Assembly (NCBI GenBank): GCA_017656185.1
Contig: JACDOK010000005.1
Location: forward strand, 49,201 to 73,200
Direction: 5' to 3'
Origin: Peptococcaceae bacterium
GTDB taxonomy: Bacteria > Bacillota > Desulfotomaculia > Desulfotomaculales > JACDOK01
DNA: 24,000 nt
Position 1 is the first letter of the stretch. Every line of letters starts with the position of its first letter. The position numbers and the translations under genes were made by a program. The notes under the pieces are model-generated. The model saw only the letters and a program-made list of their open reading frames with translations. It did no database searches and was not told where the DNA came from. Shown one piece after another: positions 1,629 to 23,966 of this stretch.

Positions 1629-2468
1629 CTGAAGAGCAATTCTGAGCTGTCTCAAGCCAGTCTCAAGGCCTATGCTGAAGACGTCAGAGATTTTGAGCGC
1701 TGGTTTAAGCAGGTTAATAAGGAAGAACTGCAGCCGGCGGCCGTCACGAGCATCGATCTCAGGGACTACCGTAATGCTTTAATAAAGCGCGGCGCCAAAC
1801 CCGCCACCATCAACAGGCGCCTGGGCATTAAAAAATGGCTCTTGCGGGCCCTGGATGAAGGCCAGATAAAAATACTGCCCGAGTTTCCGAAACAGCTTGC
1901 TCAGCAGGACCTCGCGCCGAAGTCGTTGACGAGGAGAGAGCAGCGCGCACTCGCCCGCGCTGTAGAACGATACGGCAGCCCGCGCGACAAGGCCTTAATA
2001 CAAACGATGCTGGGCTCGGGGTTGAGGGTTTCGGAAATAGCCCGGTTGGAAAGACAGGATGTGATAATACGAGAGAGGTCCGGGAAAATCGTAGTAAGGG
2101 CCGGCAAGGGGATGAAGTACCGCGAGGTACCCATCGGCCCCCAAACCAGAAAAGTACTGAAAAAGTACTTTGACCAGGAGCACCCGGGCAAGTATGTTTT
2201 CCCCGGCCGCAGTCAAGTACGGCCGGTTACGGTAAGAGCTATCCAGTATGTTATAAAGAAGTATGCCGATCTTGCCAAACTGGATCTCAAGAAACTTTAT
2301 CCTCACATCCTAAGGCATACCTTTGCGAAAAACTTGATTGATAACGGTGTTGATTTAGTGACGGTTGCCACGCTTTTAGGACACCGCCGGCTGGAAACGA
2401 CAATGCGATATACGAGGCCCCGTATGGAGGATCTACAGAGGGCCGTAGATGAGTTGGAAGGGGAGTAA
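1629..2468 (+). CDS. Tyrosine recombinase/integrase (XerC/D-like, phage-integrase family); 5' end uncertain, possibly truncated
   Basis: The catalytic domain has GLRVSE (Arg I), HILRHTFA (His-x-x-Arg) and LGHRRLETTMRYT (His, nucleophile Tyr). The in-frame sequence upstream of the tracked TTG (1842) encodes the core-binding domain (SQASLKAYAEDVRDFERWF...ITSIDLRDYRNALIKRGAKPATINRRLG) back to a TGA at 1620-1622. There is no in-frame ATG/GTG/TTG between 1623 and 1841; CTG at 1629 follows a GGGGGTGA SD-like motif. Confidence 0.8.
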   Translation: MKSNSELSQASLKAYAEDVRDFERWFKQVNKEELQPAAVTSIDLRDYRNALIKRGAKPATINRRLGIKKWLLRALDEGQIKILPEFPKQLAQQDLAPKSLTRREQRALARAVERYGSPRDKALIQTMLGSGLRVSEIARLERQDVIIRERSGKIVVRAGKGMKYREVPIGPQTRKVLKKYFDQEHPGKYVFPGRSQVRPVTVRAIQYVIKKYADLAKLDLKKLYPHILRHTFAKNLIDNGVDLVTVATLLGHRRLETTMRYTRPRMEDLQRAVDELEGE

Positions 2469-8595: not shown

Positions 8596-8628
8596 GGCCG
8601 GTAGCTTTGCTAACCGGCCTTTTTATTT
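8596..8628 (+). terminator. Intrinsic terminator
   Basis: GGCCGGT (8596-8602) pairs with ACCGGCC (8613-8619), followed by TTTTTATTTT. Confidence 0.6.
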
Positions 8629-8693
8629 TCAAAGGAGGTATTTTTCGTGGAACGAATAATCTTAATTCAGACCAGGGACAGGAGGTCGTAAGC

Positions 8694-9287: not shown

Positions 9288-9351
9288 TCGATACATGTAA
9301 CCGGGAATGTTGAACATATTAACGATCAAGTAAAGATTAAGAGTGAGTAAA

Positions 9352-9379
9352 AACCTCCGCATCGGAGGTTTTGTTTTTT
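9352..9379 (+). terminator. Intrinsic terminator
   Basis: AACCTCCG CAT CGGAGGTT followed by TTGTTTTTT. Confidence 0.7.
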
Positions 9380-9392
9380 GGGAGGGAAAACA

Positions 9393-12190: not shown

Positions 12191-12568
12191 ATGGTAAACA
12201 ACCAAAGAATTAAAAGAATAGGAACTTTAGATAGACGTGTGATAGAGCTACTAGGACTTTCTATGGCAGAAGGACTGCCTATTCTGATAGGAGATCAAAA
12301 TATTGCACATATGAAAAAGGCACATCCTGAAGACTATGCTCAATATGGTCATAAGATTGAAGAAATTTTATCCTCGCCAACTTATGTTGCAAAACATCCA
12401 CGAAAGAGTTCCATAGAATATGTTAAGGTCTACGAAGTAGAAAATGATTACGTCCTAGTAGCAGTTTGGGCTTCGGGGAGAGGGGTTTTATTTGCTAGAA
12501 CATTATTTGTAATGTCTAATAAAAAAATAAAAAAATATTTTAGCAAAAATGCTTTTAAGCGATATTGA
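12191..12568 (+). CDS. Small PBECR-like (Barnase/EndoU/ColicinE5-D/RelE-like nuclease) domain protein, 125 aa; family assignment tentative
   Basis: The pattern LPILIGDQNIAHMKKAHPEDY...IEEILSSPTYVAKHP...SIEYVKVY...YVLVAVWASGRGVLFARTLF matches, as I remember it, the small Firmicute/phage PBECR proteins (I.I....I.HI.KRHP.D....I..I...PDYV......SIEF.K....Y..VAV....G..F.RT.Y). The gene is markedly AT-rich relative to its neighbours. Confidence 0.4.
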   Translation: MVNNQRIKRIGTLDRRVIELLGLSMAEGLPILIGDQNIAHMKKAHPEDYAQYGHKIEEILSSPTYVAKHPRKSSIEYVKVYEVENDYVLVAVWASGRGVLFARTLFVMSNKKIKKYFSKNAFKRY

Positions 12569-12570: not shown

Positions 12571-12598
12571 TTGACACTATCAGTTATTCTGCTATAAT
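12571..12598 (+). promoter_or_regulatory. Strong sigma-70/SigA-type promoter (TTGACA - 16 nt - TGCTATAAT, extended -10)
   Basis: TTGACA at 12571-12576, TG at 12590-12591 and TATAAT at 12593-12598, starting 3 nt after the preceding stop codon. Confidence 0.6.
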
Positions 12599-12604
12599 AA
12601 TTAG

Positions 12605-12753
12605 TGAAATACGTATAATAACAGGAGAAACTTGAGGGCGGAACAGGCAGCCGCCGCCACGTACATACAAGTGTATGTACGGTAGGAGATGCAGATTGCC
12701 ACCTGCCAAGTTTCTCAACCGTTTCAAGGGCCGCGTTTTTCCGCGGCCTTTTT
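12605..12753 (+). ncRNA. Candidate structured leader/sRNA (unassigned class) ending in an intrinsic terminator
   Basis: Closing 10-bp helix GAGAAACTTG (12625-12634) / CAAGTTTCTC (12707-12716). Internal perfect hairpin GTACATAC-AAGT-GTATGTAC (12661-12680). GGCGG (12637-12641) / CCGCC (12651-12655) forms a hairpin whose loop GGCAG (12646-12650) can alternatively pair with CTGCC (12703-12707), giving pseudoknot potential. The terminator is GGCCGCG (12729-12735) / CGCGGCC (12742-12748) + TTTTT. No plausible ORF. Confidence 0.4.
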
Positions 12754-12778
12754 CATATTTTTAAGTCGTTTATGTTTT

Positions 12779-12807
12779 GCGCCTCGTTAGAAGGCGCTTT
12801 TTGTTTT
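12779..12807 (+). terminator. Second tandem intrinsic terminator
   Basis: GCGCCT (12779-12784) / AGGCGC (12792-12797) followed by TTTTTGTTTT. Confidence 0.55.
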
Positions 12808-13409: not shown

Positions 13410-14741
13410 TTGAAAATCGGACTTACGGTAGAAGAAAACTGGAGTAGTCACCTCAAAAAACAGAGGGAGAAAATTACGGAAGAGATCGCGCGCCAGCTAT
13501 CTAGGGATCATCCCGAGATACTTCGCGGTGAACTGTCAGATACAGTAGAACATCTTATCCGCCAGGCGGTCGTTCAGCACCCGGACTTGGCACCGGATGA
13601 AGTGGAAGAGGTAGTGGCTGCAATCAAAGGCCAGGTTACCGGATACGGCCCGCTGCAAGAACTCTTCGCGGACCCGGATATTACGGAAATTATGATTAAC
13701 CCTACCAAGGACGGTCCAAGAGTTTTCTACAGCAAACACGGTGTCAAGTTTCCCGTCGAACGCCGTATTTTCAAAGACGACCGCGAGGTAACATTGTTTT
13801 GCCAGCGCATATGCGAAAATGCCGGGCGCCCCTTCAACGCCGACGCGCCGATCGTGGACGCGTGGCTCAAAGACGGCAGCCGTATCAACGTGATGGGGTT
13901 TAAGGTGTCTCCTCTCGGCACGACGGCTACGATCAGAAAGTCGCCTTTGCTGCGACCGCCTTTACCCCTATCGGCTTTGGTGGCATCGGGGACCTTCCCA
14001 CAGTTTGTAGCCGATTTTATGGTCGACGTGCTCGTCAAAGGACACGCTAATTTAGGTGTTTTCGGACGCACGGACAGCGGCAAAACGACAGTCCTCCGGA
14101 GCCTGGGCGATTATATTGATCCCGCCGACCGAACCGTAATAACGGAAACCAGCTTTGAACTCGCATTTCCCAACCTGCCGAACTGCATTAACCTGGTTGA
14201 GGTTGCCTACGGAAACGAAACAATCGTCGATATGAGCATGTTGTGCCGGGCGGTGAACCGCATCAACCCCGACCGTATGATGGTCGGTGAGATCCGCAGC
14301 AGGGAAGTAATTGCCGCCTCCCAGCTCGCGGCCTCCACGTCAGGTGGCTTCTGGACCACCGGCCACGCCGGGAGCGTTGATGATTTGCGGACCCGCCTTT
14401 GGGGCATGTTTCTGGACGGCGGCGTCGAGATCCCGCCGAACTTTTTAGACGAGATAATCCGGTCAATGTTTGATTTCTTGATCTTCCTTGATAAAGAGAG
14501 CAAGACCGATCGCCGCGTCTTAATGTCGCTGGTCGAAGTTACAAGCGAAGGATACCGTACCATTATCCGCTTTGACGAACGGGAATTCCTGGCCAGCCAA
14601 AAACAGACGTATCGATGGATATTTGAAAACCCGGTCACGGACGAGCGCCTGTCACGCCTGGCATTCCGGGGCGCAAAAGTCAAACAGGAATACCGGGAGG
14701 TAGGACACAGAAAACACTTTTACTTGGAGGGTAACGAGTAA
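13410..14741 (+). CDS. tadA: Tad pilus secretion ATPase TadA/CpaF (VirB11-like T2SS/T4SS E family), 443 aa
   Basis: GYGPLQELFADPDITEIMIN, Walker A GRTDSGKTT, Asp box, Walker B PDRMMVGEIR and His box TTGHAGS. Confidence 0.9.
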   Translation: MKIGLTVEENWSSHLKKQREKITEEIARQLSRDHPEILRGELSDTVEHLIRQAVVQHPDLAPDEVEEVVAAIKGQVTGYGPLQELFADPDITEIMINPTKDGPRVFYSKHGVKFPVERRIFKDDREVTLFCQRICENAGRPFNADAPIVDAWLKDGSRINVMGFKVSPLGTTATIRKSPLLRPPLPLSALVASGTFPQFVADFMVDVLVKGHANLGVFGRTDSGKTTVLRSLGDYIDPADRTVITETSFELAFPNLPNCINLVEVAYGNETIVDMSMLCRAVNRINPDRMMVGEIRSREVIAASQLAASTSGGFWTTGHAGSVDDLRTRLWGMFLDGGVEIPPNFLDEIIRSMFDFLIFLDKESKTDRRVLMSLVEVTSEGYRTIIRFDEREFLASQKQTYRWIFENPVTDERLSRLAFRGAKVKQEYREVGHRKHFYLEGNE

Positions 14742-15550
14742 TGATAACTCTCCTGCTCATACTCGGGCTGTTCGGCAGCCTTTTGTTTTTGTTTTATACC
14801 TTAACCACCGGGCGTTCTCCCATAGAACGCAACCTGAAAGCTGTCATCAAAAATTTTATGTTTTGCTCCGGAATCCCTTTAGTCGTTGCCCTGGTTTTCT
14901 TTTTGGTTGGGAATATTCTTTTCGCTACGCCGGTGGCAGGACTGGTGTGGGGGATCTTGGGATGGTTCGTTCCCCTATGGGTAATCGACGCTGCCAAGGG
15001 CCGCCGGCAGGCACGCCTTCGCGCGATCTCACGCGACTTCATTACCAGTGCAGCCGGGCTTTACAGCGCCAACCAGGTCACCAGCGAAGTAATCACTACC
15101 GCAGGGAAGCGTTTACCAGAACCCTTAGGATCCGAGTTTCGGGATATGGCACAAAAATACAGCCTTGACCCATATGTCTTACCCCAAAAACTTTTTGAAG
15201 ATCTGGCTGAAAAATACGGTCTTAATGAATTCAAGGCGGTAGGACAGATTTTGGATGCCGCCAACATTGCCGGGGGGCCGCGTGCCGCCGGACGTGGTTT
15301 AAAACGCCTCGGGCGTGCTTTGCGCCTTAGAGACCGCCTGGCGACCGAACGACAGAAAGCAATGTTGGAACCAGCCGTAGCCGCCGTCGTGGTCATATGC
15401 TTAATGATAATGGGATTGGTTCTTGATGTGACTGTTCTCAGACCATACTTTGCAGCTGCCGGGCGGTGGGTTTTAAGCGCCAGCTCTGTTTTAACGGTTG
15501 CGATGATATTCGCGGTGGTGAGATTGTTCCGGTTCAAAGATCTGTTTTAG
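14741..15550 (+). CDS. tadB: TadB-like type II secretion system F-domain membrane protein, 269 aa
   Basis: ATG overlaps the tadA stop (TAATG). N-terminal TM segments, a cytoplasmic T2SSF-like helical domain (LPEPLGSEFRDMAQKY...) and C-terminal TM segments. Confidence 0.7.
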   Translation: MITLLLILGLFGSLLFLFYTLTTGRSPIERNLKAVIKNFMFCSGIPLVVALVFFLVGNILFATPVAGLVWGILGWFVPLWVIDAAKGRRQARLRAISRDFITSAAGLYSANQVTSEVITTAGKRLPEPLGSEFRDMAQKYSLDPYVLPQKLFEDLAEKYGLNEFKAVGQILDAANIAGGPRAAGRGLKRLGRALRLRDRLATERQKAMLEPAVAAVVVICLMIMGLVLDVTVLRPYFAAAGRWVLSASSVLTVAMIFAVVRLFRFKDLF

Positions 15551-15562
15551 GGAGGAGGAATA

Positions 15563-16399
15563 TTGCAGGCAATGGAACTTGTACCTGATATATGGGCCAT
15601 CGGGCTATTCCTGGCTCTTTTGTTTACGTTTATAAGCTTGACGGTACCAATGGGCCCGGACAAAACCAGCGCGATTAAGGTCACAGCCGATGCGGTCCAG
15701 CGTTACTTGATAAAGTATTACACCAAGGATCATAAACCCTATAATTTAGAGATCCTGGGCCGTTCGGTAGGCCAAGTACTCAGGGCTTCACTTTTGATTG
15801 GCGGCGGCCTGGGTGCAGTCACTTTCTTGGGTGCCGCCAAGTTTGTAGGAGCTTGGACCCTGCCTGCAGCTCTGGTTGCGTTCTTTTCGGGAGCCGCGCT
15901 GGTTGAACTTACCCTCGTAAACGAGTTTCGTGCTTGGCAGCAGAAAATGCTTGACGGCCTACCTGCTTTAGTTAATTTTGTCCCGGCCTTTTTGGATATC
16001 GGCAGCATTACTGCCCGTGAAGCGTTGGAAAAAACCGTGCCTTTCCTGCCGGAACCCCTTCGATCGGAAATGGTAGAAACAGTAGGTCATATTTCCCGCA
16101 CCGCTGATGCCGAGAAGGCCTTTGATGAACTCGCCCAAAAGGTACGGCACCCGATAATGGACGCCATATGTTCCCGCCTGGCGGCGCGCTGGGATACCAA
16201 GGTCACCTCCGACATCTTCGACGACTTGAGTGATCAGATGGATGATTTAAAAGAAATCACCGCTACGAAAGCTACGACAGCGAAAACTGCCTATTTTGCC
16301 CTGGTATGCGTGGCTGGCTTAATTGGTGCGGGGCTGGTTTTTGCCTATCCGGGAATAAGGTTTCTGGCAGACCAATTCGGAAGGGGGTTTGGAATGTAA
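15563..16399 (+). CDS. tadC: TadC-like type II secretion system F-domain membrane protein, 278 aa
   Basis: TTG after GGGAGGAGG. Same TM - T2SSF (LPEPLRSEMVETVGHISRTADAEKAFDELA) - TM layout, and paralogous position after tadB. Confidence 0.7.
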   Translation: MQAMELVPDIWAIGLFLALLFTFISLTVPMGPDKTSAIKVTADAVQRYLIKYYTKDHKPYNLEILGRSVGQVLRASLLIGGGLGAVTFLGAAKFVGAWTLPAALVAFFSGAALVELTLVNEFRAWQQKMLDGLPALVNFVPAFLDIGSITAREALEKTVPFLPEPLRSEMVETVGHISRTADAEKAFDELAQKVRHPIMDAICSRLAARWDTKVTSDIFDDLSDQMDDLKEITATKATTAKTAYFALVCVAGLIGAGLVFAYPGIRFLADQFGRGFGM

Positions 16400-16430
16400 G
16401 GGGACAAAAAGAATGTAAAGGGGGCAAAAA
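16392..16430. repeat. Imperfect tandem duplication (19 + 20 nt) spanning the tadC stop codon
   Basis: GAATGTAAGGGGACAAAAA (16392-16410) and GAATGTAAAGGGGGCAAAAA (16411-16430). The second copy carries an ATG-TAA start-stop pair plus the SD of the next small ORF. Confidence 0.7.
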
Positions 16431-16431
16431 T

Positions 16432-16545
16432 ATGGGGCGAGTGTTGTTATTTTTACTCTGCGCCGGGATGGGTGTACTCCTTATCCTGGCGTTTTTTTGG
16501 TGGCTGTTTACCGTCGGATCGTGGTGTTTTACTATCGCTTGCTAA
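16432..16545 (+). CDS. Possible 37-aa hydrophobic membrane peptide
   Basis: ATG 16432 preceded by AAAGGGGG. The sequence MGRVLLFLLCAGMGVLLILAFFWWLFTVGSWCFTIAC is essentially one or two TM helices. Too short to be supported by composition alone. Confidence 0.3.
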   Translation: MGRVLLFLLCAGMGVLLILAFFWWLFTVGSWCFTIAC

Positions 16546-16569
16546 TTTAAATCAAGGAGGAAAGAAAAT

Positions 16570-16755
16570 ATGCCGACTATTTTACGGAAGCTTATGAAAG
16601 ATCAGAGAGGAAGCCTTCCTCAAATGACGTGGACCATCGGAGCTGCAGTCGTTACCGCACTTGCCCTTATCGGGGCTATGGTGTATTTCCCGGATATCGT
16701 CGAGAGCTTTTTCCGGGCGGCCACAGACTGGATCAGAGCGCAATTTGGTTTCTAG
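16570..16755 (+). CDS. flp: Flp-family-like pilin (61 aa), divergent
   Basis: Strong SD AAGGAGG. The size, the charged leader MPTILRKLMKDQRG, and the following hydrophobic helix SLPQMTWTIGAAVVTALALIGAMVYF parallel Flp prepilins (M..L..F..DE.G/ATAIEYGLIAALIAV). Position within the tad operon is consistent. Confidence 0.55.
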   Translation: MPTILRKLMKDQRGSLPQMTWTIGAAVVTALALIGAMVYFPDIVESFFRAATDWIRAQFGF

Positions 16756-16767
16756 GGAGCGATTTAA

Positions 16768-17181
16768 GTGCTTCACAAAGTGATTGCAACTTTCGGCGCC
16801 CTGTTCATTATCCTTGGTGTTACGCTATCTGGAGCGCTATTAGTGGGTATGATAGGGCAGTGGTACGTCGTTACCAACCAAGCACAGTTTTTGGCCGAAA
16901 GCCAGGGTAAATACGGAGGCTACACGACCGAGGCCGAAGCTGCTATGCAGCAGTTCTACCACGATTATAATCTTGACCCTTCAGAAGTCGACGTCTATGT
17001 ATCTGCGCCGGGAGGGCCCGTTCCCTGGGGTACGGTAGTGACAGCACGCATTACCGTACCCTTTAAGTTTCAAGTCGGGTCGTTTATGACCCCGTTTGAA
17101 GTTCTTTTAACGGGATACGGTCGATCGGTAAGCACCTACCTGCCCGGCAGCTACGACGTTACTTATACGTCACCTTCATAA
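16768..17181 (+). CDS. TadE-like / DUF4320-like minor pilin candidate, 137 aa
   Basis: GTG after GGGAG. A single N-terminal hydrophobic helix (VIATFGALFIILGVTLSGALLVGMIG) is followed by a beta-rich domain (VVTARITVPFKFQVG), immediately after the pilin gene. Family assignment is tentative. Confidence 0.35.
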   Translation: MLHKVIATFGALFIILGVTLSGALLVGMIGQWYVVTNQAQFLAESQGKYGGYTTEAEAAMQQFYHDYNLDPSEVDVYVSAPGGPVPWGTVVTARITVPFKFQVGSFMTPFEVLLTGYGRSVSTYLPGSYDVTYTSPS

Positions 17182-17194
17182 GAGGGAAGGTAGA

Positions 17195-17806
17195 ATGGGT
17201 ACTAAAGGCCGGGATTTGCTCTTGTGGCTTTTTACTTTAACGTCTCTGGTCGTGTTAGCCCTAAGCAGATATCCAAGCACCCTGACTTGGGCGAAAGGTC
17301 TATTATGGGTTGCCATCCTCTCCGCTGGGATGATTCTTTGGTTTATATGTTATACCTTACCCAAAGCCCATCGCGATTCACGAAAGCAGGGTTTCGGGAC
17401 TGTGGTGCTGCTGCCGGTGAACCGCTGGTGGGCTTTACTTTTGATATACCTGAGTGGAGAAAGGATTTGCGGTACTCCTCGCCGAGCTTATGAAATCCAT
17501 ATCCTTTTCTCAAAGGAACTTTCAAAGCTTTCCATATGGGAGTTTTTAAAGCGCTTGGAGGATGACCTGATACTGGCAAAAGATTCTTTGCCCGGGTGTT
17601 TGTTTCTCTGGGAAACACCTGCTCCGGTTCCTTCAACTATACGGCAGTTGATCCGGGATCTTGCAGTCCAGGGAAACGCCTTCTGGCAAACCGGTCGTTG
17701 GCCGATCCCCGAACTCCCTTTCTTACCGTCACTCTTAAAGAAGAAAAAAAGACACGTACACCGGGGAGCACTACTGCTCTCCGCAGAAGGAGGCGACAAC
17801 CCTTGA
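17195..17806 (+). CDS. Hypothetical membrane protein, 203 aa
   Basis: ATG after GGGAAGG. Three predicted TM helices in the N-terminal half. No recognisable domain. Confidence 0.45.
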   Translation: MGTKGRDLLLWLFTLTSLVVLALSRYPSTLTWAKGLLWVAILSAGMILWFICYTLPKAHRDSRKQGFGTVVLLPVNRWWALLLIYLSGERICGTPRRAYEIHILFSKELSKLSIWEFLKRLEDDLILAKDSLPGCLFLWETPAPVPSTIRQLIRDLAVQGNAFWQTGRWPIPELPFLPSLLKKKKRHVHRGALLLSAEGGDNP

Positions 17807-18471
17807 GTAAAAAAGCTGCAATCATAGTGTCCGTTGTTTTGGCCCTGGTCTTTACTGTGTTGGTTACGGCTAATGCCAACCGGCGTTTTGCAGAGGCAAC
17901 CCGTACTGTGGAAGTGGTTCAAACTACACAGTATATTCCTGCGGGAGCAATGGTCGACCCTGACGATATAAAACTTGTCAAAGTGCCGGACGAAATTGCC
18001 GCCGGCTTGATCCAAGATCCGGATAAAGTAGTGGGCAAGATAACCCGGGTCGGCTTAGTAAAAGGACAGTATATTTGGGAAGACACAGTAGGGCCGGGTC
18101 TGCCTTGCCGTCCTGGTTACATTGAAGTCCACGTACCGACGGATCTTTCCAGTTCTGCTTGCGTGATCGCCGGCGACAGGGTTAACGTTTACCCGATTAA
18201 CAAATCCGCCGTGTACAGCGAGACTCCACCATCCACCAAGCCACTGGCCGAAGGACTGCGTGTCTTACACAGCTATGATCAATCCGGACAGGAGATTGAT
18301 CCCGTCAAACGCAGCGTATTAAAGGAGGTAGCCACATCCGGGAAAAACGTGGCTGTGTCGGTAGCGCTAGAAGTGCCAAAGGATATGGCAGACCAGATTG
18401 TAAAGTTTGCGTCCCACAAGGCAATATATCTGACCAAGTGCCCGCCGGATAGAAGCTGGGGGGAAGAATAA
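17803..18471 (+). CDS. cpaB: CpaB/RcpC-like Flp pilus assembly protein (SAF domain), 222 aa
   Basis: TTG 17803 lies 9 nt after GAAGGAGG and overlaps the preceding stop (TTGA). An N-terminal TM (AAIIVSVVLALVFTVLV) is followed by an SAF-like VEVVQTTQYIPAGAMVDPDDIKLVKVPDEIAAGLIQDPDKVVGKITRVGLVKGQYI. The tracked 17596 start overlaps the previous gene by 210 nt. Confidence 0.7.
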   Translation: MSKKAAIIVSVVLALVFTVLVTANANRRFAEATRTVEVVQTTQYIPAGAMVDPDDIKLVKVPDEIAAGLIQDPDKVVGKITRVGLVKGQYIWEDTVGPGLPCRPGYIEVHVPTDLSSSACVIAGDRVNVYPINKSAVYSETPPSTKPLAEGLRVLHSYDQSGQEIDPVKRSVLKEVATSGKNVAVSVALEVPKDMADQIVKFASHKAIYLTKCPPDRSWGEE

Positions 18472-18473
18472 TA

Positions 18474-19091
18474 ATGCGCAAATTGACCCTTGCGCCGTGG
18501 AAGTCTGTTCCCCCCGCAGTGCTCTTCGCGGGCGGAAAAATCGCGGAGCTGGATATTACCTGGCCGGATTTTTCCGAACCCGGCTACCAGGACCACTTAA
18601 CCGGGCTCCCGAACCGCCGGGCTTTCGACGAGGCCCTGCAGCAGGCCGTGGAACAGGCCGATCTCCAGGGGGCGGCGTTCGGTTTAATTATCCTGGACCT
18701 GGATCATTTCAAACAGATCAACGATACCCATGGCCACCAGGCGGGGGACGCCATACTGCAGTTTTTCGCCACAATGATGGCGTCGGCCACCCGCGACACC
18801 GACCTGGCAGCCAGGTACGGGGGCGAGGAATTCGTAGTGCTGTCACCCGCCTACCAAGAAATTTTCAACATTGGTGAGAGGATACGCCTGGCAGTCAGTC
18901 AGGCGCCTTTTCATTTATCGCCCGATATCCACGTGACCGCTACCTGTTCTTTCGGCTGCGCGGTGTATCCGCAGGATGCACCGGACAAGGATCGGTTAAT
19001 AAAAGCGGCTGATAAGGCCCTGTATACGGCCAAGGAAGCCGGGCGCAACCAGGGACGGCGGGCCGGAGGAGAGGGGGGTGAAAATAGTTGA
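18474..19091 (+). CDS. Stand-alone GGDEF-domain diguanylate cyclase (205 aa) with intact active site and I-site
   Basis: LTGLPNRRAF, DLDHFKQINDTHGHQAGD, I-site RDTD (18792-18803), GGEEF (18819-18833) and KAADKALYTAKEAGRN. Only ~40 residues precede the domain, so there is no sensor domain. Confidence 0.9.
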   Translation: MRKLTLAPWKSVPPAVLFAGGKIAELDITWPDFSEPGYQDHLTGLPNRRAFDEALQQAVEQADLQGAAFGLIILDLDHFKQINDTHGHQAGDAILQFFATMMASATRDTDLAARYGGEEFVVLSPAYQEIFNIGERIRLAVSQAPFHLSPDIHVTATCSFGCAVYPQDAPDKDRLIKAADKALYTAKEAGRNQGRRAGGEGGENS

Positions 19092-20569
19092 TCTGTGTTA
19101 TCGCCGCGGAAGCTGATGTGGCGCAAGTAATAAAGAAAAACCTTGGAGAGATGTACCCGGATTGGACGTTTGAGGTCTGTACGGATGCAGCTGAACTAGA
19201 CAAGTGGAGCCGCAAAAGGCCCGACGTACTGGTGTTGAGCCGTTTTCTTCCCGGTGAAGACGCGTGGTCATTATTGCCAGATATTCCCGTAATGTTTGCG
19301 GCTACCCATGTCGTTTTACTGGTCGGGGAAGATTCGGAACAAACGCGGTCGTACATCAGGAAAGCAGCACAATATGGGCTCGAAAACTACGTTTCCGGCA
19401 CACTACCCGGCGATCGGCCTTATACCTTGCCCATAGCATTGCAGTACGGGCGGGCCGAGGTTATGGGCGGGAAGAGCCGGCGGAATAAGGTGCGTGCCCG
19501 TCAGGATTCAATACCTGACCGAAAATCTCAAAATCAAAATATAGAATGCGATGACCGGTTACAGAAGCAATGTTTAGACAAACTTTCATACCAGTGTTGT
19601 TTATACAATCCGCCTCGGCCCGGGCAGAACGGTCAGGATGAAGCACAAACTATGACGACCCCTGCCTGGGGGTCTTTTTTACGTTCCGAAGACGATGTTC
19701 CCAGGCAAAAATGGAATGCCCAGCGCGGGATCCTGGTAGTCGTCACGTGCAACAAAGGCGGTGCCGGAAAGACCACTACCGTTGCAACGCTGGCTGTGGC
19801 GCTGGCAAATGCGGATATGGAAGTTATTGCCGTTGACACCGATTTTGAGGGCCCGGATCTGGAAACATTCTTTCAATTACAGGTGGAGCGTGGGCGTGGC
19901 ATAGAAGCCCTGGCAGGACGCACAAAAAGCCTGGAATTGCTGGTTGAACAATTGCTTCTGACCCCTGAGAAATACCCTAACCTGCGGATACTACCTGGCC
20001 CGGCCGACAGGACGATTTTGCCTGAAACCCTGTTTCGTCCTGGGGAGTTGGCAGACATCCTGGACATACTGGTCGGATGGGCACCGGTAGTAATAGTAGA
20101 TACGCCGCCTAATTTTTGGACGAAGCCCTGGTTGCCGGACGTGTTCAATATGGCTGACCTGGTTATAGCTGTAGTGGATCAGTCACAGTTCACTATGGAA
20201 GACATCCGCAGGTACGCTCCGAAGTTACTGCAAATGGGCGTGCGCCCCGAGAAGATAAGGCTGGTATTGAATAAGTTCTTGCCACGTCTCCACAATCCGC
20301 GCAAAGTGGAAGAAGCCTTCTGTAGCGGTTTTAAAAGCAGTGTGCCGCGCAAGGTTTTGCCCTGCGTTATTGCCACCATCCCTAATGACTGGGATGCCCA
20401 CGTTTTAAAGGGATATAAGGGTGAAGCGGTGGGGCTGGATGACGCACGCAGCCAGTGGCACCATCTTGCGGCGGAAGTTGCTGCCGAGGCCGGGCAGCGT
20501 TATGTGAAGCCGGAACAGAAGGCGAAAAAGGGCCTTTTGGGGTTGGGGTTTTTAAGGAGGAGGAAGTAG
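19088..20569 (+). CDS. tadZ: TadZ/CpaE-like protein 2: pseudo-receiver domain + ParA/MinD ATPase with intact deviant Walker A, 493 aa
   Basis: TTG overlaps the GGDEF stop (TTGA). REC-like features: ICVIAAEAD, then DVLVLSRFLPGED with Ser at the phospho-acceptor position. A low-complexity linker follows. ATPase features: ILVVVTCNKGGAGKTTTVATLAVALA, VIAVDTDFEGPD, VVIVDTPP. Confidence 0.75.
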   Translation: MICVIAAEADVAQVIKKNLGEMYPDWTFEVCTDAAELDKWSRKRPDVLVLSRFLPGEDAWSLLPDIPVMFAATHVVLLVGEDSEQTRSYIRKAAQYGLENYVSGTLPGDRPYTLPIALQYGRAEVMGGKSRRNKVRARQDSIPDRKSQNQNIECDDRLQKQCLDKLSYQCCLYNPPRPGQNGQDEAQTMTTPAWGSFLRSEDDVPRQKWNAQRGILVVVTCNKGGAGKTTTVATLAVALANADMEVIAVDTDFEGPDLETFFQLQVERGRGIEALAGRTKSLELLVEQLLLTPEKYPNLRILPGPADRTILPETLFRPGELADILDILVGWAPVVIVDTPPNFWTKPWLPDVFNMADLVIAVVDQSQFTMEDIRRYAPKLLQMGVRPEKIRLVLNKFLPRLHNPRKVEEAFCSGFKSSVPRKVLPCVIATIPNDWDAHVLKGYKGEAVGLDDARSQWHHLAAEVAAEAGQRYVKPEQKAKKGLLGLGFLRRRK

Positions 20570-20572
20570 TTT

Positions 20573-21628
20573 ATGGGCCTGAGTAAGGAAACGATAGAAC
20601 GCATAAAAGAAATGGCAACATTTCTTAGTGAGGATTACATAGCAGAAGCCTTCAATGTGCCCCCTGACGTCGTTAGAGCCGTTTTGAGGGATGAAATTGA
20701 ACCGGACGATGCAGATAATGAGAGTTCCCCGTTGAATGCCCAGGATCGTATCCAGGTGGTGGAACGGTCGAAATTCGTGCGGAACCGGACGGTAACGGTC
20801 ATCGCGCCCGGCGGCGGGAAAGGCAAGACGTCCCTGCTGGCATCCCTGGCACTAACCGCCGCCTTGTACGTACCCGAGCAGCGGCCTGTAGCCCTGATAG
20901 ACTGTGCGGAAGTTTCTAAGCTGGGAACCTGGCTGCAGGGCCTAGGCTACCTGGATATGGTTGCAGGGAATGATACATACCCCACAATCGCAGATTGGCC
21001 GGAAAAAGACGAACAATTTTACCTGGAAGAACTCACGATCCAACATCCCCAACTGGAAAATCTATACCTCGTGCCGGGTGCATATACGGTCGAACAGTGG
21101 AGAAACATCGGCATGGCAAGAATGCGTAATGCCATTGCAACTTTGCAGCGCAGTTGCGAAATGGTGTTCGTGGATCTACCGGCAGATGTCGCAGTGATCG
21201 GAAAACTCCTGCCGCTGCACGATTTGATAGTGGTAGTGATCACCGCAGATTATCCCGGAGTTGAAGGATTATTGCAGTTGGTGCCGTTGCTCAAACACTT
21301 GAGTGTACTTGAAAGGTGTCTTTTGGTTCTGAACAGGTTGGGTTGTGCGGGCGGTCTGTCACAAAAAGACTGCCGTCAGGTATTGCGCCAGGTGCTGGAC
21401 GAGGACGTGATATTCGGCGGGCTGGTACCGGAAGAGCCCGGCCTGCCGCAGCAATTTAAAAAGGGCAGGCCTCTTGTGCTGGCGGACCCGCAGTCACCGT
21501 ACTGTGCTGAAATACGGCACATTCTAAGCCAGTTATGCCCGGACTGGAAACTTAACGGACATAACCAACGCAATGAGAAAAACGGTGGCATTATCGGTAT
21601 TCTGAAAAAGCTGAGAAGAGGTGGTTAG
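20573..21628 (+). CDS. ParA/MinD-family ATPase 3 (CpaE-like) with short N-terminal helical/HTH-like segment, 351 aa
   Basis: ATG after GGAGGAGGAAG. Walker A-like VTVIAPGGGKGKTSLLASLALTAA, then VALIDCAE and MVFVDLPADV. Confidence 0.6.
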   Translation: MGLSKETIERIKEMATFLSEDYIAEAFNVPPDVVRAVLRDEIEPDDADNESSPLNAQDRIQVVERSKFVRNRTVTVIAPGGGKGKTSLLASLALTAALYVPEQRPVALIDCAEVSKLGTWLQGLGYLDMVAGNDTYPTIADWPEKDEQFYLEELTIQHPQLENLYLVPGAYTVEQWRNIGMARMRNAIATLQRSCEMVFVDLPADVAVIGKLLPLHDLIVVVITADYPGVEGLLQLVPLLKHLSVLERCLLVLNRLGCAGGLSQKDCRQVLRQVLDEDVIFGGLVPEEPGLPQQFKKGRPLVLADPQSPYCAEIRHILSQLCPDWKLNGHNQRNEKNGGIIGILKKLRRGG

Positions 21629-21740
21629 GTTGGCTTTGTGGTTCTGTAAATGTGGAACTGAGTTTGAAAGAAGCACAAAGGAATCTGGATAACTGAGCAG
21701 CTAAAAATGGCCTTTCCCCGGCCCCTGGAGGGAATTAACG

Positions 21741-22244
21741 GTGGATTGGAGTGCAACACTTTCAATGTTTTTCGGCTGTTTGCTACCATCGAGTATTGCA
21801 GCCTATACTGACTGGCGCCGATATGAGCTTCCGGATTATCTGACCCTGCCGATGCTGGGCTGGGGGCTCGCTTACGGCGTATATATGGGATTTGGCAAGG
21901 CAGCGATCACCGGCGCCGCGGCGGGGTTTATGCTCGGGTTAGTTTCAGCCCTGCTGGGGCAAATGGGAGGTGGGGATATCAAGTTCATGGCTGCGCTGGG
22001 GGCCTGGACAGGGCTTTACGGCCTGGCCGTTATCCTCATAGTCGCCAGTTGCCTGGGAGTTATATGGGGTGTCATCCGCATGGCCCGGGCTGGTACGTTA
22101 AAATACTGGATCAAAAAACCCTGGAGCCGGTTGCCGAATGACCCGGCAGCACCCGCACCCGTAAATGCGGTAGCCTTCGGTACCTGCCTGGCTGTTGGTC
22201 TCTGGTGCTACATATTATCAAGTATCGCGGGGGTGATCCGATAA
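21741..22244 (+). CDS. tadV: A24-family prepilin peptidase, TadV/CpaA type (no methyltransferase domain), 167 aa
   Basis: GTG after GGAGGG. A multi-TM protein with both catalytic Asp motifs: AAYTDWRRYELPD and GGGDIKFMAALGAWTG. Confidence 0.85.
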   Translation: MDWSATLSMFFGCLLPSSIAAYTDWRRYELPDYLTLPMLGWGLAYGVYMGFGKAAITGAAAGFMLGLVSALLGQMGGGDIKFMAALGAWTGLYGLAVILIVASCLGVIWGVIRMARAGTLKYWIKKPWSRLPNDPAAPAPVNAVAFGTCLAVGLWCYILSSIAGVIR

Positions 22245-23122: not shown

Positions 23123-23123
23123 A

Positions 23124-23966
23124 GTGTTCGGATTGGGAAAAGGCAAGGCGAAACCCCGGGTCCCCGTGGCCCTGCTGATATCTCTCGTGATCGGGCTGGC
23201 CGTAGCCGGGGGTACCGGCATGTACCTGAAAGACAGCCTGGCAAACACATCCGAGACTATAGAGGTAGCCGTACCGGCCAGGAACATCCCCCCGTACCAT
23301 ACCATTACGGCCAGCGATCTGACCTGGCGTACCATCGCGCCCCAACAGCGCGAACCCAACACAGTGGTGACGCCCGATGCCCTTGTGGGAAAAGTCGCCC
23401 GGGTCACGCTCTACAAATCAGAGCAGATCCGCCGCGAACGCCTGGCGGGCCCAAACCTGCTGGCGGGGTACGAGTTTGTCACCGTGAACATTGACCTGGC
23501 CCGATCCGGTGGTGCCAGCCCTGGTGACATCGTGGACGTATATGCTTTAACCATGACCGAAAGGTCGTCCTGGGTGTTGGGGAAGAAGAAACCTGTCGCC
23601 CGGAACGCCATCGTCCTGGATCTCTGGGACGGCCAAGGGAACCGGATTGACACAGCTACCAGCGGTGTAGGCTTAGTGGAAGCGACGACTAAAGCCCTTT
23701 CCGCCGGGGGCAACAAACCACCGGCGGTCGCCCGCCTGGCTGTACGGCCGCAGGATGTCAGCGGGGTGGTACCGGGAGCCGCTGCGGGATCCCAAACCAG
23801 TATCGTCCTGGTTGTCAAAAACAAGCAAAAACCTGTTGAAAATGAAAGGGGGGCTTTCAGCTCCAGTGAAGAAATGGAAGCAGCTGGGCGAAAAGATCAA
23901 GAACTGGGCAACCGAGGAGGAGAAGCCGGAGCCGGTAACGGAACAGAACAAGCCCAAAACCATTGA
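23124..23966 (+). CDS. Second CpaB/RcpC-like SAF-domain protein, 280 aa, with low-complexity C-terminal tail
   Basis: GTG after AAGGTG. N-terminal TM (VALLISLVIGLAVAGG), then an SAF-like IEVAVPARNIPPYHTITASDLTWRTI...ALVGKVARVTLYKSEQI. The tail is Gly/Glu/Ala-rich. Confidence 0.6.
   Translation: MFGLGKGKAKPRVPVALLISLVIGLAVAGGTGMYLKDSLANTSETIEVAVPARNIPPYHTITASDLTWRTIAPQQREPNTVVTPDALVGKVARVTLYKSEQIRRERLAGPNLLAGYEFVTVNIDLARSGGASPGDIVDVYALTMTERSSWVLGKKKPVARNAIVLDLWDGQGNRIDTATSGVGLVEATTKALSAGGNKPPAVARLAVRPQDVSGVVPGAAAGSQTSIVLVVKNKQKPVENERGAFSSSEEMEAAGRKDQELGNRGGEAGAGNGTEQAQNH

What the first reader, a model, noticed from the sequence alone, without database searches (positions are those of the whole stretch)
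18474..19091. Sensor-less GGDEF cyclase translationally coupled between cpaB and tadZ
The cyclase has an intact GGEEF active site and an RxxD I-site but only ~40 N-terminal residues, so no obvious input domain. Its ATG is 2 nt after the cpaB stop, and its stop overlaps the TTG of the TadZ-like gene. Stoichiometric co-expression with the pilus machinery is therefore built in. No recognisable c-di-GMP receptor is visible: the TadA N-terminus lacks an MshEN-like motif and no PilZ domain is apparent. The target could be one of the pseudo-receiver/ParA-like proteins or the upstream leader RNA. This suggests a locally acting c-di-GMP circuit dedicated to a mobile Tad system.
Basis: partly seen in the sequence, partly recalled or inferred. 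Interest (0 to 1): 0.65.

Follow-up and report, generated by a model that had tools for sequence, protein, structure and literature searches.

The report
Pilus-operon cyclase partnered with TadZ ATPase
A small signalling enzyme that makes the bacterial messenger c-di-GMP sits inside a pilus-building operon and in related bacteria is fused to the neighbouring pilus-organising ATPase, which points to a messenger circuit dedicated to that pilus, although no biochemistry has been done.

Summary
ORF 18474..19091 (+) encodes a 205-aa stand-alone GGDEF protein with GGEEF and RxxD (RDTD). Only 38 residues precede the domain. Its ATG lies 2 nt after the cpaB stop, and its TGA overlaps the TTG of a TadZ-like gene.

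The gene is not a stray. It belongs to a distinct family of ~200-aa GGDEF proteins (19 clusters, GGEEF invariant, conserved N-terminal extension). Five other loci from Moorella-type, Desulfotomaculum-type and Thermoanaerobacterales bacteria show the same cpaB-GGDEF-tadZ order.

The main new evidence is gene fusion. One relative (P0241) joins an intact family-type GGDEF in-frame to TadZ at exactly this gene junction, in a syntenic locus. Other relatives carry a GGDEF between the pseudo-receiver and ParA domains. Two fusions have lost the catalytic site but keep RxxD. GGDEF and TadZ co-diverge (r=0.92). Moorella thermoacetica retains a deletion relic of the gene.

No PilZ domain, MshEN domain or c-di-GMP riboswitch is present. 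The "leader RNA" is a skipping-rope RNA with its own promoter and terminators, and it is absent from related loci.

Best reading: a cyclase docked on TadZ, with its own I-site as the likely sensor. This is a new variant of local c-di-GMP signalling, closest to BcsE-BcsQ. Activity, binding and target are all untested.

The parts
18474..19091 (+). Stand-alone GGDEF diguanylate cyclase gene (205 aa)
   Evidence: ORF. Pfam GGDEF E=6.5e-48. AF2 pLDDT 89.7 with a GGDEF fold. Member of a dedicated ~200-aa family.
18474..18587 (+). Family-specific 38-residue N-terminal extension with no sensor domain and no stalk helix
   Evidence: Conserved W9, S/P-P, F18 and W30-P31 in 19 family members. Residues 21-38 pack on the domain core with pLDDT >90, and residues 1-20 are poorly defined. 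The WP motif is retained in fusions P0241 and P0255.
18792..18803 (+). I-site RxxD (R107-D-T-D110)
   Evidence: Read. D110 is invariant in the family; position 107 is R in 12, K in 6 and E in 1. RxxD is kept in the catalytically dead fusions P0189 (RDND) and P0255 (RYTD).
18819..18833 (+). Active-site GGEEF (residues 116-120)
   Evidence: Read. Invariant in 19/19 family members together with D75, D77, N83, D84, D92, K187 and R191.
17803..18471 (+). cpaB/rcpC-like gene (SAF domain); its stop lies 2 nt before the GGDEF ATG
   Evidence: Pfam SAF 1.2e-06; RcpC 22 bits, below cut-off. Gene call in L001. In L011, L012, L013 and L094 this gene overlaps the GGDEF start by 8 nt.
19088..20569 (+). TadZ-like ATPase (493 aa). 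Pseudo-receiver residues 1-127, disordered linker 129-210, MinD/ParA domain 215-470 with Walker A NKGGAGKT, C-terminal helix 475-488. Its TTG overlaps the GGDEF stop.
   Evidence: Pfam CbiA/ParA/AAA_31. Alignment A2 shows S51 in the phospho-acceptor position. AF2 model. Foldseek hits E. rectale TadZ 3FKQ at rank 3 as the only two-domain match. Fusions with GGDEF in homologues.
20573..21628 (+). Second, shorter ParA/MinD-like protein (351 aa), conserved directly downstream of TadZ-like
   Evidence: Pfam CbiA 20 bits, below cut-off. A positional homologue is present in L007, L009, L011, L012, L013, L094, L095 and L096.
13410..14741 (+). TadA/CpaF-like secretion ATPase (443 aa) without an MshEN N-domain
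   Evidence: Pfam T2SSE matches residues 121-333 only. No MshEN motif by regex.
14741..16399 (+). Two TadB/TadC-like platform protein genes (14741..15550 and 15563..16399)
   Evidence: T2SSF 21 bits, below cut-off, for the first; no hit for the second. Position is conserved after T2SSE in all related loci.
21741..22244 (+). Prepilin peptidase (Peptidase_A24)
   Evidence: Pfam 4.2e-19.
23124..23966 (+). Second cpaB-like gene, opening a second Tad-like gene set that continues beyond the window
   Evidence: Pfam SAF 1.6e-08. In L001 it is followed by T2SSE (404 aa), two platform-like genes and a small protein with a faint Flp_Fap hit.
12571..12797 (+). Separate unit, not part of the cyclase module: consensus promoter (12571-12598), skipping-rope RNA (12627-12714) and two terminator hairpins (12726-12751, 12779-12797)
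   Evidence: Rfam RF02924 57.2 bits against a gathering score of 36.7. Promoter 12/12 with TG, and terminators. Fold z=-4.8. Absent from 7 related loci.

Best explanation
The ORF encodes a real, apparently catalytically competent diguanylate cyclase that works as an accessory subunit of the TadZ-like pilus ATPase encoded immediately downstream.

Shown by sequence and comparison:
- The protein belongs to a dedicated ~200-aa GGDEF family. The active site is invariant, the residue that specifies c-di-GMP is retained (D92, equivalent to PleD D344), and a family-specific 38-residue N-terminal extension is conserved.
- The family occupies the cpaB-to-tadZ slot of a double Tad-like pilus island in Moorella-type, Desulfotomaculum-type and Thermoanaerobacterales Firmicutes.
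- The GGDEF and TadZ-like proteins co-diverge.
- In several lineages they form one polypeptide.

Inferred mechanism:
- The monomeric GGDEF has no dimerisation or sensor domain, so it docks on the TadZ-like protein, possibly through the N-terminal extension.
- ATP-dependent sandwich dimerisation of the MinD/ParA domain brings two GGDEF domains together, so c-di-GMP is made at the pilus platform.
- The product binds the cyclase's own RxxD I-site. This limits synthesis and/or switches the state of the TadZ complex, and so controls assembly or placement of the pilus machine.

The I-site is proposed as the sensor because it is the feature kept in fused copies that have lost catalysis.
For: Catalytic competence:
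- Pfam GGDEF E=6.5e-48.
- GGEEF, D75/D77, N83/D84, D92, K187 and R191 are invariant in 19/19 family members.
- AF2 pLDDT is 89.7, with TM 0.9 to c-di-GMP-bound GGDEF domains.
- The best PDB sequence hits are PleD-type cyclases at about 1e-46.

Dedicated family:
- 18 homologues score 169-239 bits at mostly >=94% coverage including the N-terminus. Scores then drop to generic GGDEF hits at about 75% coverage.

Synteny:
- cpaB-GGDEF-tadZ occurs in the window, L007, L011, L012, L013 and L094.
- The cpaB/GGDEF junction runs from an 8-nt overlap to a 2-nt gap.
- The GGDEF/tadZ junction runs from a 13-nt overlap to a 20-nt gap in five of the six loci. L011 is called at 150 nt, but the tadZ reading frame there is open from 7622, directly after the GGDEF stop at 7621.

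Fusions:
- P0241 joins an intact family-type GGDEF (52% identical, RYGGEEF, RGGD) in-frame to TadZ at the same junction, in the fully syntenic locus L096.
- P0209, P0208 and P0216 have the order pseudo-REC, GGDEF, ParA. P0209 sits in a syntenic locus of Desulfofundulus kuznetsovii.
- P0296 carries a GGDEF before its ParA domain.
- A 683-aa Desulfoscipio protein carries GGDEF (weak hit) plus ParA hits.
- P0189 and P0255 have lost the catalytic residues but keep RxxD.

Co-divergence: r=0.92, Mantel p about 2e-4, over 9 same-contig pairs.

No dimerising stalk helix is present in the model.

TadZ-like features: deviant Walker A NKGGxGKT, typical of dimerising MinD/ParA ATPases, plus a pseudo-receiver domain.

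Precedents:
- The GGDEF* domain of BcsE binds the MinD/ParA-type BcsQ directly and holds c-di-GMP at its I-site (PMC7439463).
- Direct cyclase-receptor contacts govern c-di-GMP signalling in a Firmicute (PMC7064775, abstract).
Against: - No biochemical evidence exists for activity, for GGDEF-TadZ binding or for c-di-GMP binding.
- The I-site arginine is not strictly conserved in the stand-alone family (K in 6, E in 1) or in P0209 and P0208 (KxxD).
- In two elements the family member is not adjacent to the 493-aa-type TadZ. In L005/L006 it ends a T4SS module about 10 kb upstream. In L002 it follows a T2SSE gene and a different CbiA-like gene.
- The gene is dispensable. It is absent in Desulforudis L008 and metagenome L015, and deleted in M. 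thermoacetica L095.
- The internally fused GGDEFs are only about 31% identical to the window protein, so they may have a different origin and role.
- P0241 comes from a single short-read assembly, so an indel artefact cannot be fully excluded.
- The dimerisation-activation step is pure inference.
Confidence: 0.55

Rival explanations
1. Host-manipulation cargo. The cyclase has no dedicated partner. It is expressed constitutively together with the element's pilus or transfer genes. It raises the global c-di-GMP pool of the host and drives aggregation or biofilm, which helps adhesion or conjugative spread.
For: - There is no sensor domain, so output would be set by expression level.
- The element looks mobile: integrase and toxin-antitoxin modules in the window, T4SS genes in related loci, and an integrase at the end of L096.
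- Cyclases encoded on ICEs and genomic islands are known (PMC4542580 and PMC10672970, listed).
- No PilZ, MshEN or riboswitch receptor lies in the operon.
- In L005/L006 the gene sits at the end of the T4SS module.
Against: - Repeated fusion to the TadZ-like ATPase, including catalytically dead copies that cannot raise any pool.
- A fixed operon slot with translational coupling.
- Co-divergence with TadZ.
- A conserved non-catalytic N-terminal extension.
Confidence: 0.2
2. Mainly a receptor or scaffold. The GGDEF protein senses c-di-GMP made by chromosomal cyclases through its RxxD site and relays this to TadZ. Its own catalysis is marginal.
For: - Fusions P0189 and P0255 retain RxxD but have lost the metal-binding, GTP-binding and GGEEF residues.
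- D110 is invariant across all nine aligned forms.
- Precedents are BcsE and degenerate GGDEF receptors such as PopA and PelD (own knowledge).
Against: - Every catalytic residue is invariant in 19/19 stand-alone members and in fusion P0241, which indicates selection on catalysis.
- By contrast, the I-site arginine varies (R, K or E) in the stand-alone family.
Confidence: 0.12
3. The c-di-GMP made by the cyclase acts on the upstream structured RNA (12605-12753) as a riboswitch-like leader of the Tad operon.
For: - The RNA lies between a perfect promoter and the first operon gene, and is followed by two terminator hairpins, so read-through could gate the operon.
- The RNA is strongly structured, with z=-4.8.
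Against: - It is a skipping-rope RNA. This class is described as followed by terminators, rarely in 5' UTRs, and associated with a nearby protein-coding gene on either strand (PMC5737381). Here a PBECR3 nuclease gene lies directly upstream.
- No skipping-rope or c-di-GMP riboswitch match was found in 7 related loci that carry the GGDEF family or a GGDEF::TadZ fusion.
Confidence: 0.03
4. A decaying passenger gene with no current role.
For: - The gene was lost or deleted in some lineages.
- A GGDEF fragment lies in L005/L006.
- A stub of the GGDEF domain remains in D. australicus P0215.
Against: - The ORF is intact with all functional residues.
- About 50% divergence between family members with invariant active-site positions implies purifying selection.
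- The gene co-diverges with TadZ.
Confidence: 0.03

Closest known systems
BcsE-BcsQ(R) regulatory complex of enterobacterial cellulose secretion
   Same: A GGDEF-fold domain with an RxxD I-site is physically attached to a MinD/ParA-family ATPase inside an envelope nanomachine operon. BcsE also contains a degenerate receiver domain. The domain set REC*, GGDEF and ParA of fusions such as P0209 therefore mirrors BcsE plus BcsQ (PMC7439463). Some TadZ-like homologues are even auto-named BcsQ.
   Different: The GGDEF domain of BcsE is degenerate and only senses c-di-GMP, whereas the window protein has a complete active site. The machine here is a Tad-like pilus rather than a cellulose synthase. No PilZ acceptor such as BcsA is present. 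No sequence-level membership was found. The interaction here is inferred from fusions, not shown.
TadZ/CpaE localisation ATPases of Tad (type IVc) pili (E. rectale TadZ, PDB 3FKQ; Caulobacter CpaE)
   Same: The downstream partner has an atypical receiver domain lacking the phospho-acceptor Asp, followed by a MinD/ParA ATPase. It sits in a tad-like operon with tadA, tadB/C-like genes, cpaB and a prepilin peptidase. 3FKQ is the only full-length two-domain structural match.
   Different: It is very distant in sequence: the profile finds no 3FKQ hit, and proteins named CpaE score only E of about 1e-7. It has a long disordered linker and a C-terminal amphipathic helix. No TadZ/CpaE has been reported to bind or partner a GGDEF protein in the literature I could search.
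c-di-GMP control of type IV pili through MshE/PilB (MshEN domain), FimX and PilZ
   Same: c-di-GMP is coupled directly to the cytoplasmic part of a type IV filament machine (review PMC11656802).
   Different: Those systems sense c-di-GMP at the motor ATPase N-domain or through EAL/PilZ adaptors. Here the TadA-like motor lacks MshEN and no PilZ is present. The link is to the ParA-like organiser, and the source enzyme is encoded inside the operon.
Partner- or dimerisation-activated cyclases (PleD, WspR, SiaD-SiaC)
   Same: The GGDEF domain needs an external dimerising or activating module. Fusion P0209 places the GGDEF directly next to a dimerising module, as in REC-GGDEF regulators. The SiaD-SiaC structure 7e6g is among the structural hits.
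   Different: The proposed activator is an ATP-dependent MinD/ParA dimer encoded by a separate gene. No such activation has been shown for any cyclase, as far as I know.
Cyclases carried by ICEs and genomic islands (SXT/R391 DgcK/DgcL; Vibrio alginolyticus island cyclase)
   Same: The diguanylate cyclase is encoded on an integrative mobile element (PMC4542580 and PMC10672970).
   Different: Those are cargo genes that act on the host's global pool (own knowledge of the cited work). This one is embedded in and fused to a structural operon component.

Membership tests
GGDEF diguanylate cyclase (PF00990) | Profile match above the curated threshold over the whole domain | tested here: met
   163 bits against a cut-off of 23.8, covering profile positions 3-161 of 161.
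GGDEF diguanylate cyclase (PF00990) | Intact GG(D/E)EF active-site motif with the metal- and GTP-binding residues | tested here: met
   GGEEF at residues 116-120. D75, D77, N83, D84, D92, K187 and R191 are invariant in 19/19 family members. Mapping to PleD N335/D344 is from own knowledge.
GGDEF diguanylate cyclase (PF00990) | GGDEF (palm-like) fold | tested here: met
   AF2 pLDDT 89.7. Foldseek TM up to 0.90 with rmsd 1.6 A to 3ign, and matches to PleD and WspR.
GGDEF diguanylate cyclase (PF00990) | Allosteric I-site RxxD five residues upstream of GGDEF | tested here: met
   RDTD at residues 107-110. Within the family the site is R/K/E-xx-D, with D invariant.
GGDEF diguanylate cyclase (PF00990) | Synthesis of c-di-GMP from GTP | not testable with these tools
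   Requires an enzyme assay.
GGDEF diguanylate cyclase (PF00990) | N-terminal sensor or dimerisation module (usual but not defining) | tested here: not met
   No Pfam domain in residues 1-38. No helix or coiled coil in the model.
TadZ/CpaE pilus-localisation ATPase | N-terminal atypical receiver domain without a phospho-acceptor Asp | tested here: met
   Five-stranded alternating strand-helix domain, residues 1-127, pLDDT >90. S51 occupies the Asp position in the conserved SRFLPG motif.
TadZ/CpaE pilus-localisation ATPase | C-terminal MinD/ParA ATPase with deviant Walker A | tested here: met
   Pfam CbiA, ParA, AAA_31 and MipZ hits. NKGGAGKT is invariant. MinD, ParA and FleN are the top structural matches.
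TadZ/CpaE pilus-localisation ATPase | Sequence-level relatedness to characterised TadZ/CpaE | tested here: inconclusive
   The profile search of PDB sequences does not find 3FKQ. Proteins named CpaE appear only at E from 4e-8 to 1e-6. Foldseek does find 3FKQ at rank 3, E=2e-9, over both domains.
Tad (type IVc) pilus system | TadA/CpaF-type ATPase, prepilin peptidase and CpaB/RcpC in one locus | tested here: met
   T2SSE 2.2e-16, Peptidase_A24 4.2e-19, SAF 1.2e-06.
Tad (type IVc) pilus system | Two TadB/TadC platform proteins and an Flp-type pilin | tested here: inconclusive
   T2SSF scores 21 bits, below the 25.2 cut-off, for one protein and gives no hit for the other. The 61-aa candidate pilin has no Pfam hit. 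Only a faint Flp_Fap hit appears in the second gene set.
PilZ / MshEN c-di-GMP receptors | PilZ domain or MshEN motif in an operon protein | tested here: not met
   No Pfam hit in 27 window proteins. No motif by regex in six-frame ORFs. None is listed in the precomputed Pfam hits of 11 related loci.
c-di-GMP riboswitch (Rfam c-di-GMP-I/II) | Covariance-model match at the gathering score | tested here: not met
   The only Rfam match in the window is skipping-rope.
skipping-rope RNA (RF02924) | Covariance-model match at the gathering score, followed by an intrinsic terminator | tested here: met
   57.2 bits against 36.7, full model 1-80. Terminators at 12726-12751 and 12779-12797. Class description in PMC5737381.
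BcsE-BcsQ-type GGDEF:MinD/ParA complex (works-like comparison only) | Direct binding of the GGDEF-fold domain to the ATPase | not testable with these tools
   Supported only indirectly, by natural fusions and co-divergence.

The most novel reading that the evidence does not exclude
TadZ/CpaE-class MinD/ParA ATPases are a previously unrecognised output, and possibly activator, of c-di-GMP signalling. In this reading an attached GGDEF module is switched on by the ATP-dependent TadZ dimer and reports back through its I-site. The pilus organiser would then both make and read c-di-GMP, an ATP-to-c-di-GMP relay at the machine. Catalytically dead fusions would represent the pure-receptor end state. 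This would give a concrete candidate for the missing c-di-GMP effector of Tad pili.
Probability: 0.3. Interest if true: 0.75.

Novelty: new variant of a known kind. Interest (0 to 1): 0.58.

Why it matters
c-di-GMP is known to control Tad pilus dynamics, but the effectors are not identified. The Caulobacter study only postulates two hypothetical effectors (PMC6581867). A natural series links c-di-GMP chemistry to the TadZ-like organiser ATPase: a separate gene, an intact fusion and catalytically dead I-site-only fusions. This gives a directly testable pair of proteins.

The series also offers a simple model for "local" second-messenger signalling in Gram-positive anaerobes: a sensor-less cyclase whose activity may be set by a partner's nucleotide state. 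In addition, it shows an accessory signalling gene being gained, fused and deleted within one family of integrative pilus islands.

Tried and rejected
1. A genome-contig scan with the single TadZ-like protein returned only one locus, Desulforudis L008, which has no GGDEF.
2. A metagenome-contig scan with the TadZ alignment used generic Walker-A patterns. Only 4 of 80 loci were true family members, and 3 of those were too short to judge. No unbiased frequency could therefore be derived. My estimate that the GGDEF is present, unfused or fused, in roughly a fifth to a quarter of loci rests on cluster counts and a handful of loci.
3. PLSDB plasmids gave no match to the TadZ-like protein. The element is therefore more likely integrative than a known plasmid.
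4. A search of the 5.8-billion protein set with an alignment of the two degenerate GGDEF* domains found nothing at E<=0.001. Conservation of RxxD in a larger degenerate family could not be tested.
5. Rfam found no RNA family in 7 related loci, which removes the leader RNA as a conserved partner.
6. The supplement of the skipping-rope paper is not held, so the protein domain it associates with could not be checked against PBECR3.
7. I looked for a gene whose presence tracks the GGDEF. SpoIIM-like and DUF5677 genes vary independently of it, so no candidate receptor emerged.
8. A Hypr-type cGAMP synthase was considered and rejected, because the specificity position is Asp (D92) in all members (mapping from own knowledge).
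9. AlphaFold-Multimer of GGDEF with TadZ is not available here, and the tool does not accept chimeric inputs.
Full report
**Observation**

The ORF at 18474..19091 (+) is real: ATG start, 205 aa.
- Pfam places a complete GGDEF domain at residues 39-193 (E=6.5e-48).
- Read directly from the sequence, GGEEF is residues 116-120 (nt 18819-18833).
- RDTD (RxxD) is residues 107-110 (nt 18792-18803), five residues upstream of GGEEF, the canonical I-site position.
- The preceding SAF/RcpC-like cpaB gene ends with TAA at 18469-18471, 2 nt before the ATG.
- The GGDEF stop TGA (19089-19091) overlaps TTG (19088-19090) of a 493-aa ORF with MinD/ParA-type domains.
- The TTG start is credible. Homologues begin at the aligned position with M-x-C-[VIL]-I-A-A-E, and a G-rich Shine-Dalgarno-like run lies upstream.
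- cpaB more likely starts at 17803 than at 17596 (gene call).

**The protein**

An AlphaFold2 model built on 19 family sequences is confident (pLDDT 89.7). It superposes on solved c-di-GMP-bound GGDEF domains with TM up to 0.90. PleD-type cyclases are the best PDB sequence matches, at about 1e-46.

There is no N-terminal stalk helix or coiled coil. Residues 21-38 pack on the domain core and residues 1-20 are poorly defined.

The homology search shows a sharp discontinuity. Eighteen proteins of 167-228 aa score 169-239 bits, mostly with >=94% coverage that includes the N-terminus. After them come only generic GGDEF hits covering about 75%. The family comes from Desulfoscipio gibsoniae, Moorella naiadis, Moorellaceae and Thermoanaerobacterales/Thermoanaerobacteraceae genomes.

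In the family alignment:
- GGEEF, D75, D77, N83, D84, D92, K187 and R191 are invariant.
- D92 corresponds to PleD D344. It is Asp, as in c-di-GMP synthases, not the Ser of cGAMP-making Hypr enzymes (mapping from my own knowledge).
- The I-site Asp (D110) is invariant. The Arg position is R in 12, K in 6 and E in 1.
- The N-terminal extension carries conserved W9, S/P-P, F18 and W30-P31. It is therefore a family hallmark, not a random leader.

**Genomic context**

The window carries a tyrosine integrase (1842..2468), ParB, MqsR/MqsA-type toxin-antitoxin genes and a PBECR3 nuclease. A Tad-like operon follows: an unknown 191-198-aa protein, a TadA-like T2SSE ATPase, two TadB/C-like proteins, small proteins, cpaB, GGDEF, a TadZ-like protein, a second ParA-like protein and a prepilin peptidase. 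A second Tad-like gene set then opens with a second cpaB at 23124 and continues beyond the window.

The order cpaB-GGDEF-tadZ recurs in five other loci:
- Moorella naiadis (L007)
- Moorellaceae AZ2 (L011)
- a Thermoanaerobacterales MAG (L012)
- a Logan contig (L013)
- the complete genome of Neomoorella glycerini (L094), which was reached through TadZ rather than through the GGDEF

At the cpaB/GGDEF junction the spacing ranges from an 8-nt overlap to a 2-nt gap. At the GGDEF/tadZ junction it ranges from a 13-nt overlap to a 20-nt gap in five of the six loci. In L011 the called gap is 150 nt, but the tadZ reading frame there is open from 7622, directly after the GGDEF stop at 7621.

Elsewhere the family member stays inside the same type of element but at another place:
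- In L005/L006 it lies at the end of a conjugative T4SS module (PrgI, TraC-like, VirB4-like, SLT/M23) upstream of the Tad genes.
- In Desulfoscipio (L002) it follows a T2SSE gene and a CbiA-like gene.

The module is accessory. It is absent from Desulforudis L008 and metagenome L015. In Moorella thermoacetica L095 the 132-nt cpaB-tadZ spacer still encodes LKAADQALYAEEAGPNRGKN. This is 71% identical to the C-terminus of the M. naiadis protein and is a deletion relic.

**Link to the TadZ-like ATPase**

This is the main new result. Searching with the TadZ-like protein and with a profile against 1.84 billion representatives recovered several fusion proteins (Pfam; sequences).

1. P0241 (680 aa) joins an intact family-type GGDEF to the TadZ-like protein. 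The GGDEF is 52% identical to the window protein and carries IFWPEF, the I-site RGGD, RYGGEEF and TCSFGCAVYP. It runs in-frame into ...VLCVIAAD..., exactly where the window has its stop/start overlap. Its locus L096 is fully syntenic, from T2SSE to the second Tad set and an integrase.
2. P0209, P0208 and P0216 have the order pseudo-receiver, GGDEF (RWGGDEF), ParA. P0209 is from the complete genome of Desulfofundulus kuznetsovii and sits in a syntenic locus. A 683-aa Desulfoscipio protein with a weak GGDEF hit plus ParA hits, and P0296, also combine GGDEF with ParA. These internal GGDEFs are only about 31% identical to the window protein. They are therefore either independent recruitments or fast-diverging copies.
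3. P0189 and P0255 carry family-derived GGDEF domains (TGLPN, IGERI and VVWPAY signatures). Both have lost the metal-binding, GTP-binding and GGEEF residues (RYDKSKI; HYDKERF) but retain RxxD (RDND; RYTD).

Two further traces of decay were seen. P0215 of D. australicus looks like P0209 with the GGDEF deleted, leaving the stub RDALTGCYTRR. L005/L006 carry an extra GGDEF fragment.

Across nine same-contig GGDEF/TadZ pairs the pairwise identities correlate (r=0.92, Mantel p about 2e-4). The two genes have therefore been inherited together over divergence down to about 50% identity.

**The partner**

The AF2 model of the 493-aa protein (pLDDT 78.8) shows four parts:
- a confident five-stranded receiver-like domain (residues 1-127)
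- a disordered linker (129-210), which is the place where P0209-type proteins carry their GGDEF
- a MinD/ParA domain (215-470)
- a C-terminal helix (475-488)

The receiver's phospho-acceptor position is Ser within an invariant SRFLPG motif, and the Walker A is the deviant NKGGxGKT.

By sequence the closest solved proteins are MinD, FleN and related ATPases, and the profile does not hit TadZ 3FKQ. By structure, 3FKQ (E. rectale TadZ) ranks third and is the only match spanning both domains. I therefore call the protein TadZ-like by architecture and position. Sequence-level membership remains inconclusive.

**Receptor question**

No PilZ or MshEN domain occurs in any window protein scanned, and none was found by motif regex in six-frame ORFs. 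None is listed in the precomputed Pfam hits of eleven related loci.

The upstream RNA is a skipping-rope RNA (RF02924, 57.2 bits, 12627..12714).
- It is preceded by a 12/12 consensus promoter with an extended TG (12571-12598).
- It is followed by two terminator hairpins and is strongly structured (z=-4.8).
- The class was described as terminator-followed, rarely 5'-UTR-located, and associated with a nearby protein gene on either strand (PMC5737381).
- Here the neighbour is a PBECR3 nuclease gene.
- No such RNA occurs in seven related loci that carry the GGDEF family or a GGDEF::TadZ fusion.

The RNA is thus a separate feature of this particular element, not a conserved target.

**Mechanism**

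Shown:
- a catalytically complete, sensor-less GGDEF
- a fixed operon slot with tight coupling
- co-divergence with the TadZ-like ATPase and repeated fusion to it
- survival of the I-site in catalytically dead fusions

Inferred:
- The GGDEF docks on TadZ.
- GGDEF catalysis needs two domains face to face, and this protein has no dimeriser. The ATP-sandwich dimer of the MinD/ParA domain is therefore the most economical activator.
- The product, held at RxxD, limits synthesis and/or changes the state of the TadZ complex, and so controls pilus assembly or placement.

The best precedent is BcsE-BcsQ. The GGDEF* domain of BcsE binds the MinD/ParA-type BcsQ directly and keeps c-di-GMP at its I-site next to the cellulose synthase (PMC7439463). 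Direct cyclase-receptor contacts also govern c-di-GMP signalling in Bacillus subtilis (PMC7064775, abstract).

The main rival is that the gene is mobile-element cargo raising the host's global pool, as for ICE-borne cyclases (PMC4542580, PMC10672970). This fits the lack of a sensor and of a receptor. It does not explain the fusions, the dead-but-retained copies or the conserved extension.

**Novelty and limits**

I found no report linking TadZ/CpaE to GGDEF proteins or to c-di-GMP binding. The Caulobacter work on c-di-GMP and Tad pili leaves the effectors open.

This is a new variant of local c-di-GMP signalling, not a new principle.

Everything functional is inferred from sequence and comparative evidence. 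P0241 rests on one short-read assembly. The frequency of the module among TadZ-family loci is only roughly known, because the large scans returned few usable loci.

Noticed in passing
window 12571-12797 (+), next to 12191-12568: A skipping-rope RNA (RF02924) forms its own unit. It has a perfect TTGACA-16-TATAAT promoter with an extended TG, the RNA itself, and two terminators. It lies directly after a PBECR3 (phage Barnase/EndoU/RelE-like) nuclease gene. The class is reported to associate with a specific nearby protein, so PBECR3 may be that partner. Because no other promoter-like site precedes the first Tad gene, read-through of these terminators could also gate the operon.
   Followed up: partly
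L095 7869-8000 (Moorella thermoacetica contig): The 132-nt spacer between cpaB and tadZ encodes a relic of the GGDEF C-terminus (LKAADQALYAEEAGPNRGKN, 71% identical to the M. naiadis protein). The cyclase gene was therefore deleted in this lineage.
   Followed up: yes
window 13410-23966 and L001 11078-17045: Two Tad-like gene sets lie in tandem. The first has a TadA of 443 aa. The second starts with a second cpaB at 23124 and continues with a 404-aa T2SSE ATPase, platform-like genes and a small protein with a faint Flp hit. This double arrangement is conserved in L007, L009, L012, L013, L094, L095 and L096. Why two sets are kept is unexplained.
   Followed up: partly
L005/L006 1474-9997; L010 8670-10781: Related islands carry conjugative type IV secretion genes next to the Tad-like genes or next to a TadZ-like fusion: PrgI, TraC-like, a VirB4-like ATPase, an SLT/M23 hydrolase and a VirD4/TraG coupling protein. 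The Tad-like pilus may serve mating-pair formation of an integrative conjugative element in Gram-positive anaerobes.
   Followed up: no
window 5649-6977 (+), next to ParB at 3205-4887: A third protein of receiver-like plus ParA/CbiA-like type (442 aa; weak Response_reg and CbiA hits) lies near a 560-aa ParB homologue. It may be a partition ATPase of the element built on the same architecture as the TadZ-like protein.
   Followed up: no
window 7089-8460 (+): An MqsR-like toxin gene is followed by a 335-aa antitoxin-like protein that combines MqsA zinc-ribbon/HTH and SocA/Panacea domains.
   Followed up: no
window 8607-12086 (+): A Cu_amine_oxidN1-domain protein and a 902-aa secreted protein with a PQQ-like beta-propeller and a weak, sub-threshold CARDB hit precede the Tad operon. 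The same pair type (a Cu_amine_oxidN1 protein followed by a large protein) lies upstream of the Tad genes in L002, L005, L009 and L011. It may be a pilus-associated adhesin or a cell-wall anchor.
   Followed up: no
P0215 (Desulfofundulus australicus) compared with P0209; L005/L006 11377-11538: Further traces of GGDEF turnover were seen. The D. australicus TadZ-like protein keeps only the first residues of the inserted GGDEF domain (RDALTGCYTRR). L005/L006 carry a 55-bit GGDEF fragment about 800 bp downstream of the intact gene.
   Followed up: partly
P0232 (715 aa, found): A relative of the TadZ-like ParA domain is fused to a T4SS_pilin domain (PF18895). This is another hint that this ATPase family is tied to conjugation machinery.
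   Followed up: no
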